64,000 nucleotides of DNA from a virus (lineage: Duplodnaviria; Caudoviricetes), in the IMG/VR virus record IMGVR_UViG_3300000101_000005. One strand, written 5' to 3'. The notes under the pieces were generated by a model. It saw only the letters and a list, made by a program, of their open reading frames with translations, did not search any database and was not told where the DNA came from. The translations under genes and the position numbers were made by a program. Below, piece by piece: positions 2,148-4,750 of this stretch. Each line of letters starts with the position of its first letter. The first letter of the stretch is position 1.

Positions 2148-2540
2148 CTATACGTCTTCTAATGTTAAAACGTTTGTAGTTGAGTCATCACTAACAGACC
2201 ACTTGTATCTGTTGTTACTAAAGTCTGTAGCAATTCTGTTTGACATCTTCATAACGTTAACTGCTTGACCGTTATAGTAACCAATGATTACCATTTCGCC
2301 TTCAAGCACAGCAGAAGAATCAGTAACTTTATTTACAAGTTTACAAATTGCTTCTTCGCCTGAGTCATTACCGTGAACTAAAAATCTACGTGAAGATTTT
2401 TGTTTAACGATATAAACATCACTGCCGCCATCTGTAGCATTAACAATAATGCCGCCGATAAACGCTGCTTCAACTGGAATATGAGGTGTTGCGTCAACAC
2501 CCAATGCACCGAAATATTTCTTATTAATTGGTCTTCCCAT
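2148..2540 (-). CDS. Hypothetical late protein (MGRPINKKYFG...)
   Basis: 130 aa; strong SD TAAGGAG; first gene after the late promoter at 2630-2635. Confidence 0.7.
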   Translation of the reverse strand: MGRPINKKYFGALGVDATPHIPVEAAFIGGIIVNATDGGSDVYIVKQKSSRRFLVHGNDSGEEAICKLVNKVTDSSAVLEGEMVIIGYYNGQAVNVMKMSNRIATDFSNNRYKWSVSDDSTTNVLTLEDV

Positions 2541-2558
2541 TTTTTTCTCCTTAAGTTT

Positions 2559-2625
2559 GACGTTCTAGGTCTACGCGGTTGGTTTTCCGCATAAGTCCGC
2601 CGTTGTCAGCGGCACACTTTTGACA
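2559..2625 (-). promoter_or_regulatory. Structured 5' leader of a late operon
   Basis: Stems GCCG/CGGC (2599-2602/2610-2613), GCGG/CCGC (2575-2578/2587-2590), GAC/GTC (2559-2561/2595-2597) and alternative TGTCA/TGACA (2604-2608/2621-2625), between the TAAATA box and the SD. Confidence 0.45.
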
Positions 2626-2902: not shown

Positions 2903-2908
2903 GCTAGT

Positions 2909-2937
2909 ATTATATAGTATTTTGGACAGTTAGTCAA
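2909..2937 (-). promoter_or_regulatory. Sigma70-type early promoter
   Basis: TTGACT (2937-2932), 17 nt, TATAAT (2914-2909). Confidence 0.85.
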
Positions 2938-2938
2938 G

Positions 2939-2963
2939 AAAAAAGACACCGAAGTGTCTTTTT
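2939..2963 (-). terminator. Intrinsic terminator
   Basis: Minus strand AAAAA-GACAC-TTCG-GTGTC-TTTTT: cUUCGg tetraloop plus U-tract; A-tract on the other side, so possibly bidirectional. Confidence 0.9.
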
Positions 2964-2970
2964 AATATAA

Positions 2971-3145
2971 GCAAAATAGGTAGGACTTGGGTACACCTAC
3001 AAGCACGGACCTGAATACCATTCTGTTCCGTACAACCTAACCCCGCTAGTGAATGCGATGTGATACTGCCTATCTCTAGTACAGCACCTGGGTACCACCC
3101 CTGGTTAGTCAAGTTCAACCCTTCTGGTAAAGGCTTCTTCCTTGC
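2971..3145 (-). ncRNA. Structured non-coding RNA of unknown family (~175-nt core, ~240-nt transcript)
   Basis: Bounded by its own promoter and terminator. Ends pair (GCAAGGAAG / CTATTTTGC); internal stems have G-U pairs and a GAGA tetraloop only on the minus strand; possible pseudoknot. Confidence 0.7.
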
Positions 3146-3187
3146 ACTATAAACAAAAGTTAATTACTCTTTTGTTGCTATATTATT

Positions 3188-3236: not shown

Positions 3237-3431
3237 CTATATATTATTACTTGAAGTAACAGAAATATGTTTTAGTACTTTGCCAGTATTCTCGCCACTT
3301 TTTACAGTATATCCACTAGTACCACTACCATTAATATTTGGCTCAGAACGTGACATCATTAAGATGCGTTCCTTACGAGCTCTCATTTTTGCCTCGCGGT
3401 ATGTTTTGTGTAAATGATCGAATCTGTTCAT
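3237..3431 (-). CDS. Small basic protein (64 aa) under riboswitch control
   Basis: Start moved from 3470 to ATG 3431: it follows the SD AAGGAGG (3443-3437), while 3470 falls inside the riboswitch. MNRFDHLHKTYREAKMRARKERILMMSRSE... Confidence 0.7.
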   Translation of the reverse strand: MNRFDHLHKTYREAKMRARKERILMMSRSEPNINGSGTSGYTVKSGENTGKVLKHISVTSSNNI

Positions 3432-3456
3432 AACACCCTCCTTTTTAAAGTTAGGT

Positions 3457-3503
3457 GCGTTCCTTCGCATAATGCTACTTCCGTCCCGATTGGGATGAAC
3501 GAT
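3457..3503 (-). ncRNA. Glutamine riboswitch, glnA class (three-way junction)
   Basis: Minus strand CGTTC-A-TCCC-AATC-GGGA-C-GGAAGTA-GCA-TTA-TGC-GAAG-GAACG: P1 CGUUC/GAACG, P2, P3 and the loop-E strands GGAAGUA/GAAG match the glnA aptamer as I recall it. Confidence 0.8.
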
Positions 3504-3508
3504 ACTAT

Positions 3509-3514
3509 TATTTA
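3509..3514 (-). promoter_or_regulatory. gp55-type late promoter (TAAATA)
   Basis: CTAAATAAT, about 5 nt upstream of the aptamer 5' end. Confidence 0.6.
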
Positions 3515-3520
3515 GTCATA

Positions 3521-3551
3521 AAAAAAGGGCGATATAAAAATACCGCCCTTT
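3521..3551 (-). terminator. Intrinsic terminator of the head operon
   Basis: AAAGGGCG/CGCCCTTT stem (3524-3531/3544-3551) with a U-run on the minus strand, just after the capsid gene. Confidence 0.75.
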
Positions 3552-3577: not shown

Positions 3578-4750
3578 TTACGCAAATCTTAGGTTAGCTG
3601 AAGTAACTCCAACTTTTCCTAAGTAGTCAGCTGCATTACCAAGAGATGATGCAGTGTTTGTTAACTCTACATAACCATATCTTGTCATGAAACTTACAAC
3701 TGGCTCAAATGTACCTGGATCAAGTACAACACCGCTTGACATCAAAGGAATGTATGGGCAGTAGAACGCAGGTGCGTCTGATTCCGAAGAACCTTTGTAA
3801 CCGATCAACACATCGTCGTCAGTTGCATAACCGTTAACGTACACACGCATTGCACTATTTAAAGTTCCTACAAACTTAGTGTTTGTTGGTGCTTCAAAAG
3901 TACCTTCAGTTGTTCTTGCGAACGCTGAAGTTGTAGCAGATTGTAACAACGTTAATACTGTTGGTGAAACAACAGCGTAGTTACCTGCGCCACGTCTTGT
4001 ACGCTGTGCAATCAAGTTAGATACTCTGTTGATTTGAACAGCTAAAGCAGCATGTTCGTCACCAACAAAAGTAGCAGTACCTGACACTGCACCTTGGTCG
4101 TAAGTTAAAGCAGCCGTACCAGCAAGTGTTTTCAATGATTGAATAACTTCTTGGTCAATTTCAGCTGTTATTTCTTGTGCTAAAGCAGCCATTACTTCTG
4201 CTTCGATGTCAATGCCCTGTTGAGCTTGTGCATCTTGTGCAGCTTCAAACGTCCAACGAGCACTCAATTTACGAGTTTTCGCTTCGACAGTTTGTTTCAA
4301 GATTTGAATGCTTAGTCTGTTTCCAGCTACACCTTCTAAAGCTGCTGTAGAAGCTGCTTTATCATTAGTAGCACCAGAATAACCTTCTGCGATCTTGAAA
4401 GGTGATAGTGCTTCGTCACCTGCTGTAGTGTCAGTTCCACTTCCAGAGTTGAATGCATCAGCATAACGTACTCTTAATGTGTGGATTTGACCAACAGGTC
4501 CAGTCATTGGCTGTACGCCAACTAGTTCATTAGCGATGACCGTAGGCATCACACGTCTGATCACTGGAAGGATCACACGGTTTAGTGTTGCGACGTTACC
4601 GGCAGATGTAGCACCTGCTGTAGCAGACTCGTTCAAATACGTGCGGGTATTCTCCAGAGTTGTTGCCATAACAGTACGCTTGTTACCTTGAAGTCCTTCT
4701 AAAAGGGCATCTTTGGTTTCTGACCAGCGACTTTCTAGTAGTTGTGACAT
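3578..4750 (-). CDS. gp23: Major capsid protein, T4 gp23-like
   Basis: 390 aa; motifs VGVQPMTGPVGQI, VEAKTRKLSARWTFEAAQD, AFYCPYIPL, FMTRYG; follows scaffold and protease. Confidence 0.95.
   Translation of the reverse strand: MSQLLESRWSETKDALLEGLQGNKRTVMATTLENTRTYLNESATAGATSAGNVATLNRVILPVIRRVMPTVIANELVGVQPMTGPVGQIHTLRVRYADAFNSGSGTDTTAGDEALSPFKIAEGYSGATNDKAASTAALEGVAGNRLSIQILKQTVEAKTRKLSARWTFEAAQDAQAQQGIDIEAEVMAALAQEITAEIDQEVIQSLKTLAGTAALTYDQGAVSGTATFVGDEHAALAVQINRVSNLIAQRTRRGAGNYAVVSPTVLTLLQSATTSAFARTTEGTFEAPTNTKFVGTLNSAMRVYVNGYATDDDVLIGYKGSSESDAPAFYCPYIPLMSSGVVLDPGTFEPVVSFMTRYGYVELTNTASSLGNAADYLGKVGVTSANLRFA

What the first reader, a model, noticed from the sequence alone, without database searches (positions are those of the whole stretch)
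3237..3514. Glutamine riboswitch behind a phage late promoter, controlling a small basic protein
Seen: a compact glnA-class aptamer (3503-3457) starting about 5 nt after a TAAATA box. Its 3' flank GCACCT can pair with AGG/GGTGT around the SD of a 64-aa ORF. Established: this riboswitch class senses glutamine, and in cyanobacteria it controls the small glutamine-synthetase inactivating factor gene gifB. Inference: the phage senses host nitrogen status during virion assembly. The K/R-rich peptide (RARKERILMMSRSE) is faintly reminiscent of IF7/IF17 and might tune nitrogen assimilation; that similarity is weak.
Basis: partly seen in the sequence, partly recalled or inferred. Interest (0 to 1): 0.72.

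Follow-up and report, generated by a model that had tools for sequence, protein, structure and literature searches.

The report
Phage glutamine riboswitch gating small protein
An uncultured marine giant phage carries a genuine glutamine-sensing RNA switch right after its capsid gene, and the switch most likely lets a tiny, very basic phage protein of unknown function be made only when the infected cell is rich in nitrogen.

Summary
Window 3503-3454 (- strand) matches the Rfam glutamine riboswitch at 58 bits (threshold 35). A TAAATA late-promoter box ends 5 nt upstream. The bases just 3' of stem P1 pair with the ribosome-binding site of a 64-codon ORF. Across 96 related phage leaders this pairing covaries, which is the translational ON design shown experimentally for cyanobacterial gifB.

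The ORF is a real gene (dN/dS about 0.25; 129 representative clusters; phrog_32989). Its product is predicted as a basic helix plus a conserved Gly-rich tail.

The phage is a T4-like jumbo phage and not a cyanomyovirus by its capsid protein. The only cultured phages with relatives of the protein infect Pelagibacter (SAR11).

More than 120 viral contigs carry the same aptamer in front of interchangeable small basic ORFs, often directly after the major capsid gene.

This is not new in kind. Phage glutamine riboswitches were published for the OM43 phage Melnitz, and this scan has noted them before on other DNA (cyanophages). In Melnitz the aptamer actually precedes an unannotated small ORF, not the tmRNA. 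The protein's target remains unknown.

The parts
3578..4750 (-). Major capsid protein gene (gp23 type), the gene immediately upstream of the cassette
   Evidence: Pfam Gp23 E 1e-99. It is 67-72% identical to the capsid proteins of Rak2/PA5oct-like jumbo phages.
3517..3551 (-). Intrinsic terminator after the capsid gene (12-bp stem, then a U run)
   Evidence: Terminator scan, stem 3551-3524 followed by TTTTT; sequence.
3509..3515 (-). T4-type late-promoter box CTAAATA. The predicted transcript start is about A3503, six bases after the box.
   Evidence: Sequence. The box ends 4-12 nt before P1 in 60/109 related loci against 45/2440 controls. CTAAATA is depleted in the window (9 against 20.6 +/- 4.4 expected), and another copy lies 18 nt before the scaffold gene's ATG. 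No 5'-end data exist.
3454..3503 (-). Type-1 glutamine riboswitch aptamer. P1 is 3501-3497 with 3462-3458, P2 is 3495-3492 with 3487-3484, P3 is 3475-3473 with 3469-3467. The conserved junctions are ACGGAAGUA and CGAAGGAACG.
   Evidence: RF01739, 58 bits against 35. P2/P3 covariation and an invariant P1.
3433..3458 (-). Expression platform. Anti-SD G3458-U3453 pairs with G3438-U3433. C3457 corresponds to the 'linchpin' C that the ligand-bound aptamer captures.
   Evidence: The helix appears in the MFE and centroid folds. Covariation over 96 leaders. C47 is invariant in 96 sequences. Mechanism is by analogy to gifB.
3437..3441 (-). Shine-Dalgarno GGAGG, 5 nt before the ATG
   Evidence: Sequence. 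GGAG is conserved in the alignments.
3237..3431 (-). 64-aa basic protein (pI 10.4, net charge about +7). It has a predicted N-terminal helix (residues 3-26) and a conserved tail, NGxGT(S/T)GY..K.G.N.GKVL.H.
   Evidence: ORF list. 24-sequence alignment with invariant R3, R28, G37, T38, G40, G46, H55. dN/dS median 0.25. 129 representative clusters at E<=1e-3. phrog_32989 E 6e-6. AF2 helix 3-26, mean pLDDT 64.7. Charge.

Best explanation
This is a self-contained late-gene cassette placed just behind the capsid-gene terminator.

Transcription (inferred from the promoter box only): a T4-type late promoter starts the transcript at or next to the first base of a type-1 glutamine aptamer.

Switching:
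- At low glutamine, the five to six bases directly 3' of P1 (GCACCU) pair with GGGUGU. That stretch overlaps the Shine-Dalgarno, so the 64-codon ORF is not translated.
- When glutamine binds, the aptamer captures the first of these bases (C3457) in its long-range 'linchpin' pair. The helix melts, the ribosome-binding site is freed and the protein is made.
- This is an ON switch. The RNA architecture is shown here by sequence and covariation. The ligand response is inferred from the experimentally studied gifB riboswitch.

Product: a phage-specific, strongly basic 64-aa protein with one helix and a conserved Gly-rich tail. It is not homologous to IF7/IF17.

What the protein does is not shown. 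My ranking:
- about 0.25: it binds and damps a host nitrogen-assimilation protein (glutamine-synthetase type), as a non-homologous analogue of IF7/IF17.
- about 0.2: it is a nitrogen-costly polycation tied to DNA, RNA or polyamine function that is only worth making when nitrogen is plentiful.
- the rest: unknown.

The confidence given below refers to the riboswitch-controls-this-ORF mechanism.
For: - Aptamer: 58 bits against 35, full length. P1 is invariant, P2 and P3 covary, and 95.6% of cells are paired.
- Linchpin C (C47) is invariant in 96 leaders.
- Anti-SD/SD helix: 87% paired against 24-56% when slid; 34 double-change cells against 13.1 +/- 2.7; 0/500 shuffles reach this. CACC/GGUG, CACU/AGUG and CAUC/GAUG variants occur. 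The helix is present in the MFE and centroid folds.
- The same logic is described for gifB, where glutamine raises translation in vivo (PMC6212724).
- Cyanobacterial gifB leaders fetched here use the analogous CGCCUC/GAGGCG pairing.
- Late box: spacing is conserved in 60/109 loci against 1.8% of controls.
- ORF: conserved from its first codon; dN/dS 0.25; 129 clusters; the nearest Atlas clusters, all under the 0.9 lead threshold, are viral only; phrog_32989.
- RNA-library contigs cover 3313-3538. This shows presence only.
Against: - No binding, reporter or 5'-end data exist for this RNA.
- The promoter is a consensus match only. Read-through from the capsid gene could also supply the transcript.
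- Relatives of the protein in cultured Pelagibacter phages have no riboswitch, so the protein does not need this control.
- The MFE fold also offers an alternative pairing of the P1 5' strand with AUGAAC at the start codon. I did not test it.
- The folding z-score of the leader is modest (-1.9).
Confidence: 0.8

Rival explanations
1. The small protein is a glutamine-synthetase inactivating factor of the IF7/IF17 family.
For: The same riboswitch class controls gifB/IF17 in cyanobacteria. The protein is small, basic and largely unstructured, as IF7 is said to be. Other phage aptamers do precede true DUF4278 peptides.
Against: There is no DUF4278 match at E<=10. hhalign against the IF7-like domain of five cyanobacterial IF17 proteins gives 0.5% probability, with only 9 columns aligned. 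No NCBIfam or PDB relative was found. By its capsid the phage is not a cyanophage.
Confidence: 0.03
2. The protein is a functional analogue, not a homologue, of IF7/IF17 or GlnK. When glutamine is high it binds and shuts down host glutamine synthetase or ammonium uptake, giving a host with little such control a phage-made feedback loop.
For: - In cells, this aptamer class sits almost only before nitrogen-assimilation genes: gifB in cyanobacteria; glnA and amtB in 28-30% G+C alphaproteobacterial single-cell genomes; GSII in SAR86.
- ON-at-high-glutamine logic fits an inhibitor.
- Cultured relatives occur only in Pelagibacter phages. SAR11 lacks the PII network but has GlnA (PMC3870248).
- All cargo families are strongly basic.
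Against: No sequence or structural link to any GS or Amt binder was found. Six or more unrelated peptide families share the slot, which is odd for one conserved target. Relatives without a riboswitch exist.
Confidence: 0.22
3. The cargo is a nitrogen-expensive polycation, for example a DNA/RNA-binding or virion-internal protein functionally close to polyamines. The riboswitch simply restricts its synthesis to nitrogen-replete cells.
For: - All riboswitch-linked peptide families have pI 10-11.5 and net charge +5 to +9.
- The cassette is late and directly follows a major capsid gene in 25 of 101 evaluable loci, across two unrelated capsid families.
- An S-adenosylmethionine decarboxylase (polyamine synthesis) gene is the immediate upstream neighbour in 9 loci, and lies between capsid gene and aptamer in 2 of these (L010, L088). 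It is fused to this very protein family on 9 contigs.
Against: Adjacency may only reflect a shared hypervariable island. The fusion may be a collapse of neighbouring genes. There is no nucleic-acid-binding motif or virion proteomics. The helix is not amphipathic.
Confidence: 0.2
4. The aptamer does not control the ORF. It belongs to the upstream RNA as a 3' element of the capsid mRNA (as was claimed for the tmRNA in phage Melnitz), it controls the downstream manA-like RNA, or it is a decaying relic.
For: The Melnitz paper assigns its near-identical aptamer to the tmRNA. A manA-like RNA follows the ORF, and no terminator lies in between.
Against: - A terminator and a promoter box separate the capsid gene from the aptamer.
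- The SD-sequestering helix covaries across 96 loci whatever lies upstream.
- In Melnitz the aptamer lies 3' of the tmRNA models and is followed by the same SD and a 32-codon ORF.
- Every conserved aptamer position is intact.
Confidence: 0.06

Closest known systems
Type-1 glutamine riboswitch of the Synechocystis sp. PCC 6803 gifB (IF17) leader (Klahn et al. 2018, PMC6212724; aptamer family RF01739, Weinberg 2010, Ames & Breaker 2011)
   Same: Same aptamer family. The expression platform is the same: bases next to the linchpin C pair with the ribosome-binding site, so glutamine turns translation on. The cargo is likewise a small basic protein.
   Different: The cargo has no detectable homology to IF17/DUF4278. 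It is carried by a jumbo T4-like phage, driven by a late-promoter box and placed right after the capsid gene. No experiment has been done on it.
Glutamine riboswitch of Methylophilales (OM43) phage Melnitz and related pelagimyophage contigs (Buchholz et al. 2022, PMC9004378)
   Same: Aptamer plus SD are 86-88% identical to the window. It is a phage of a streamlined marine heterotroph. A small basic ORF follows the same SD.
   Different: The paper reads it as the 3' domain and controller of the tmRNA. In fact the aptamer (L001 3075-3027) starts after the tmRNA models end (3083) and precedes an unannotated 32-codon ORF. Melnitz has no late box there and a different, shorter peptide family.
Type-2 glutamine riboswitch (Downstream-peptide motif, RF01704) with DUF4278 'IF17-like' short ORFs in marine picocyanobacteria, and the same cassettes in cyanophages
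   Same: A glutamine aptamer stands in front of very short conserved ORFs. Some viral contigs fetched here carry true DUF4278/YRG peptides behind the type-1 aptamer.
   Different: The window has the type-1 fold and a non-DUF4278 cargo.
Tandem glnA-motif aptamers before glnA, amtB and GSII genes in marine heterotrophs (Weinberg 2010 metagenome observations; SAR86 in PMC12379486)
   Same: Same aptamer family in non-cyanobacterial marine bacteria, confirmed here in low-G+C alphaproteobacterial, SAR116 and SAR86 assemblies. These are plausible donors for the phage copy.
   Different: Those are tandem, precede enzymes or transporters and have a different 3' platform. The window has a single aptamer with an SD-sequestering ON platform.

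Membership tests
Type-1 glutamine riboswitch (Rfam RF01739, glnA RNA motif) | Covariance-model score at or above the curated gathering score over the full model | tested here: met
   58.0 bits against 35, model 1-53 of 53, E 3.5e-10
Type-1 glutamine riboswitch (Rfam RF01739, glnA RNA motif) | Three stems P1, P2, P3 with conserved junction sequences, supported by compensatory changes | tested here: met
   P1 is invariant. All 7 pairs of P2 and P3 show double changes. 95.6% of cells are paired against 29-47% when slid. The junctions ACGGAAGUA and GAAGGAACG are invariant.
Type-1 glutamine riboswitch (Rfam RF01739, glnA RNA motif) | Conserved C directly 3' of P1 that forms the ligand-dependent long-range G-C pair | tested here: met
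   C47 (window 3457) is invariant in 96 phage leaders. Its role is taken from Ren 2015 as summarised in PMC6212724.
Type-1 glutamine riboswitch (Rfam RF01739, glnA RNA motif) | Selective binding of L-glutamine with a structural change | not testable with these tools
   Needs in-line probing or ITC of RNA 3503-3429
gifB-type translational ON platform | Bases next to the linchpin C pair with the ribosome-binding site of the downstream ORF | tested here: met
   The helix G46-C50 with G67-U71 is 87% paired. It has 34 double-change cells against 13.1 +/- 2.7, with 0/500 shuffles reaching this. It is present in the MFE fold.
GS inactivating factors IF7/IF17 (GifA/GifB; Pfam DUF4278 plus IF7-like C-terminal domain) | DUF4278 (YRG) domain | tested here: not met
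   No Pfam match at E<=10 for the window protein or two relatives. YRG peptides from other phage loci do match (E 8e-6 and 1e-3).
GS inactivating factors IF7/IF17 (GifA/GifB; Pfam DUF4278 plus IF7-like C-terminal domain) | IF7-like GS-binding domain (..R.LM....R..ML.R...EVG..) | tested here: not met
   hhalign of the 24-sequence family profile against five cyanobacterial IF17 C-terminal domains gives probability 0.5% with 9 columns aligned. The IF17 profile is small.
GS inactivating factors IF7/IF17 (GifA/GifB; Pfam DUF4278 plus IF7-like C-terminal domain) | Binds and inactivates glutamine synthetase | not testable with these tools
   Needs a GS activity assay with purified peptide and the host enzyme
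PHROG phrog_32989 (phage protein family of unknown function) | Profile match | tested here: met
   E 6.1e-6 for the window protein (residues 16-54), 4.4e-10 for relative P0009

The most novel reading that the evidence does not exclude
The interchangeable, strongly basic mini-proteins behind phage glutamine riboswitches, including this 64-aa family shared with Pelagibacter phages, would be a new class of virus-made, glutamine-gated regulators. They would take over nitrogen assimilation (glutamine synthetase or ammonium uptake) in streamlined marine heterotrophs such as SAR11, which lack the PII system. That would be convergent with cyanobacterial IF7/IF17 but unrelated to it.
Probability: 0.2. 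Interest if true: 0.75.

Novelty: new member of a known kind. Interest (0 to 1): 0.42.

Why it matters
The finding shows that a phage far from cyanophages, a jumbo T4-like phage of a marine heterotroph, reads the host's central nitrogen signal with a host-type RNA sensor during late infection.

It also gives the sensor a concrete, testable output: one small protein.

The wider survey changes how these elements should be read in three ways:
- The aptamer with its SD-sequestering tail behaves as a portable cassette, often placed right behind the major capsid gene.
- Unrelated small basic ORFs are swapped in and out of the slot behind it.
- The published Melnitz case is better explained in the same way than by control of a tmRNA.

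These mini-proteins are unannotated in cultured phages (Melnitz, HTVC008M). They are good candidates for finding out how phages of SAR11/OM43-type hosts respond to nitrogen supply.

Tried and rejected
- Whole-genome search: no genome is held for this window.
- Pfam, NCBIfam and PDB sequence searches of the protein found nothing meaningful.
- I ran no fold search, because the model is one helix plus a low-confidence tail (pLDDT 64.7) and any matches would be meaningless.
- hhalign among the riboswitch-linked peptide families (A, B, C, MTYRPF, D, NPFYP) gave probabilities of at most 1.3%. I do not claim they share ancestry, only that they share basic character.
- Complex prediction of the peptide with two copies of a riboswitch-controlled GlnA from a 30% G+C alphaproteobacterial single-cell genome (a stand-in host) returned 'no answer', score 0.00. 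It counts neither for nor against binding.
- RNA evidence: marine RNA libraries hold contigs over parts of the stretch, one spanning 3313-3538. Contigs cannot show starts, strand or level, and DNA carry-over is possible.
- The leaderless pattern TAAATA-N5-ATG is not enriched within this window alone (3 against 2.05 expected).
- AF2 of the AdoMetDC fusion folds the enzyme domain well. The tail stays at pLDDT 61-79, so docking cannot be judged.
- blastn of the aptamer against cultured phages finds only Melnitz. This reflects blastn's sensitivity for a short query and is no measure of how rare the aptamer is.
- Ren et al. 2015 could not be read. Its points are cited through PMC6212724.

Full report
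**Observation.** Read on the - strand, the capsid gene (3578-4750; Pfam Gp23, E 1e-99) ends and is followed by these features:
- a 12-bp hairpin with a U run (3551-3517);
- the box CTAAATA (3515-3509);
- five bases;
- a 50-nt element at 3503-3454;
- a 12-nt A/U-rich spacer;
- GGAGG (3441-3437);
- ATG 3431;
- a 64-codon ORF that ends at 3237.

cmscan against Rfam gives the element as RF01739, the glutamine riboswitch aptamer. The match covers the full model at 58.0 bits against a gathering score of 35.

**What the genome is.** No whole genome is held. The capsid protein is 67-72% identical to those of Rak2/CBB/PA5oct-like jumbo myophages and far from cyanomyovirus capsids. The prohead protease, scaffold and portal genes follow in T4 order. 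Earlier notes of this scan on the same genome call it an uncultured marine jumbo T4-like phage with TAA(A/G)TA late boxes and a pqqA gene. I used these notes as leads only. The protein called from this window occurs on a contig of 195.5 kb.

**The RNA is a member of a large phage set.** A pattern for the aptamer core found more than 120 viral contigs; the scan stopped at its limit.
- In 19 leaders that precede the same protein family, P1 is invariant and every pair of P2 and P3 shows compensatory changes. 95.6% of cells are paired against 29-47% when the partners are slid, and 0/500 shuffles reach the observed covariation.
- The C directly after P1 is invariant in 96 leaders. In the solved aptamer this base forms the glutamine-dependent long-range pair and, in gifB, it begins the stretch that pairs with the ribosome-binding site (PMC6212724).

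**Expression platform.** In the window G3458-C-A-C-C-U3453 pairs with G3438-G-G-U-G-U3433, which overlaps the SD. The helix appears in both the minimum-energy and the centroid folds.
- Over 96 distinct leaders the five core pairs are 87% paired, against 24-56% when slid.
- They show 34 double-change cells against 13.1 +/- 2.7 in shuffles, with 0/500 shuffles reaching this.
- The variants CACC/GGUG, CACU/AGUG and CAUC/GAUG all occur.
- Cyanobacterial gifB leaders fetched from genomes use the analogous CGCCUC/GAGGCG.

This is the design for which Klahn et al. showed that glutamine raises translation. I therefore read the window's element as a translational ON switch. The ligand response itself is inferred.

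**Promoter.** A TAAATA-type box ends 4-12 nt (mode 6) before the P1 strand in 60 of 109 distinct loci. At random points the figure is 45 of 2440. In the window the box is followed by five bases and then the first base of the Rfam model. CTAAATA is depleted in the window (9 against 20.6 +/- 4.4), and another copy lies 18 nt before the scaffold gene's ATG. No 5'-end data exist. Contigs from RNA libraries cover 3313-3538 but cannot show a start.

**The ORF is a real gene.**
- Twenty-four homologues align from the first codon, with invariant R3, R28, G37, T38, G40, G46 and H55.
- The median dN/dS is 0.25.
- A profile search finds 129 representative clusters.
- The nearest language-model clusters, though below that tool's lead threshold, are all viral.
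- The family is phrog_32989, of unknown function.
- AF2 predicts a helix at residues 3-26 and a low-confidence Gly-rich tail. In a natural fusion the tail is modelled as a small hairpin at modest confidence.
- The protein is strongly basic (pI 10.4, net charge about +7), and so are all other peptide families found behind the aptamer.

**Not IF7/IF17.** Pfam DUF4278 does not match, although YRG peptides behind other phage aptamers do match it. I built a profile of the IF7-like C-terminal domain from five cyanobacterial IF17 proteins found behind their own riboswitches. hhalign against the family gives 0.5% probability. The resemblance is limited to size, charge and disorder.

**Context across phages.** The gene directly upstream of the cassette, in 101 evaluable loci:
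- a gp23-type capsid gene in 21;
- an unrelated capsid family in 4;
- S-adenosylmethionine decarboxylase in 9;
- HSP20 in 5.

Within the window's own clade (capsid 70-87% identical), the slot behind the same aptamer holds one of three different peptide families. The aptamer plus SD therefore acts as a portable cassette with exchangeable cargo. The decarboxylase is also fused to this whole protein family on nine contigs, without an aptamer. This is probably a collapse of the decarboxylase-riboswitch-ORF order seen in L010 and L088.

**Host hints.**
- Among cultured phages, relatives of the protein occur only in Pelagibacter phages (myo-, podo- and siphoviruses). There they lack a riboswitch.
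- The aptamer plus SD is 86-88% identical to that of the OM43 phage Melnitz.
- Tandem RF01739 aptamers precede glnA and amtB in 28-30% G+C alphaproteobacterial single-cell genomes and precede GSII in SAR86. So marine heterotrophs do own this sensor.
- SAR11 lacks the PII network but has GlnA (PMC3870248).
- OM43 strain NB0046 has GS, PII and NtrB (PMC5120137).

**Function of the protein.** Nothing computed here identifies a target. Two readings fit the context. One is a non-homologous analogue of GS or Amt inhibitors, based on guilt by association with the aptamer's cellular regulon and on the ON-at-high-glutamine logic. The other is a nitrogen-costly polycation linked to packaging or polyamine function, based on charge, late timing, and capsid and AdoMetDC neighbours. 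I give them about 0.2-0.25 each.

**Comparison and novelty.** The RNA is a regular member of RF01739 with the gifB-type platform. Phage-borne copies in heterotroph phages were published for Melnitz (PMC9004378), and this scan has already reported many cyanophage copies. Four things are added here:
- the regulated gene and its covarying platform;
- the cargo family and its pelagiphage relatives;
- the capsid-gene slot with cargo exchange;
- a corrected reading of the Melnitz locus.

I rate it a new member of a known kind, of moderate interest.

Noticed in passing
window 2970-3174 (- strand): Directly after the 64-aa ORF lies a full-length match to the manA RNA motif (RF01745, 54.7 bits, gathering 55.2, E 1.8e-13). 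A sigma70-like TTGACA-16-TATATT (3215-3188) precedes it, and a hairpin with a U run (about 2962-2938) follows it. RNA-library contigs cover 3034-3181.
   Followed up: partly
window 2538-2613 (-) and 17504-17648 (-): There are two further catalogued RNA motifs. freshwater-2 (RF02980, 54.4 bits) stands before the 130-aa ORF 2148-2540. Polynucleobacter-1 (RF01718, 59.4 bits) is the other. The kilobase after the capsid gene thus holds three Rfam-type RNAs.
   Followed up: no
L001 (Methylophilales phage Melnitz, MZ577097) 2906-3075, - strand of the locus: The glutamine aptamer (3075-3027) begins after the tmRNA models end (3083). The same SD and an unannotated 32-codon ORF (ATG 3004, MTLYQQWCYLKAQKEYRRRQKILMYFRIRLKG) follow it. 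GenBank annotates a CDS on the opposite strand instead. [quoted passage not shown]
   Followed up: yes
L242 (Pelagibacter phage HTVC008M, KC465899) 2415-2587: An unannotated relative of the 64-aa protein lies between the gp2-like and gp48-like genes. It is split by a frame change at an A run (..AGAAAAAACAAG..). This could be a sequencing error, a pseudogene or a slippery site. No riboswitch is present.
   Followed up: partly
P0016, P0039, P0040; loci L246-L250: These are natural fusions of a complete S-adenosylmethionine decarboxylase with the whole small-protein family, or in P0040 only its Gly-rich C-terminal module. P0016 is seen on nine contigs from several samples, next to HSP20.
   Followed up: partly
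L230, L144, L133, L139, L169 (marine alphaproteobacterial single-cell genomes); L160, L146, L177 (SAR86 and other gammaproteobacterial MAGs): Tandem RF01739 aptamers (54-66 bits) stand before glnA and amtB in 28-34% G+C alphaproteobacterial assemblies, and a single one before a GSII-type gene in SAR86. Some gammaproteobacterial MAG contigs carry the phage-type platform with small ORFs and may be mis-binned phage DNA.
   Followed up: partly
window 3496-3502 with 3425-3431 (- strand): The 5' strand of P1 plus two bases (GUUCAU) is perfectly complementary to the start codon and the next codon (AUGAAC). The minimum-energy fold uses this pairing, so the start codon may also be masked in the OFF state. 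I did not test this across relatives.
   Followed up: no
literature (PMC9004378 against PMC5120137): The Melnitz paper states that OM43 lacks glutamine synthetase. The transcriptome paper on OM43 strain NB0046 lists a type I glutamine synthetase, PII, NtrB and two ammonium transporters that are induced by nitrogen depletion.
   Followed up: partly
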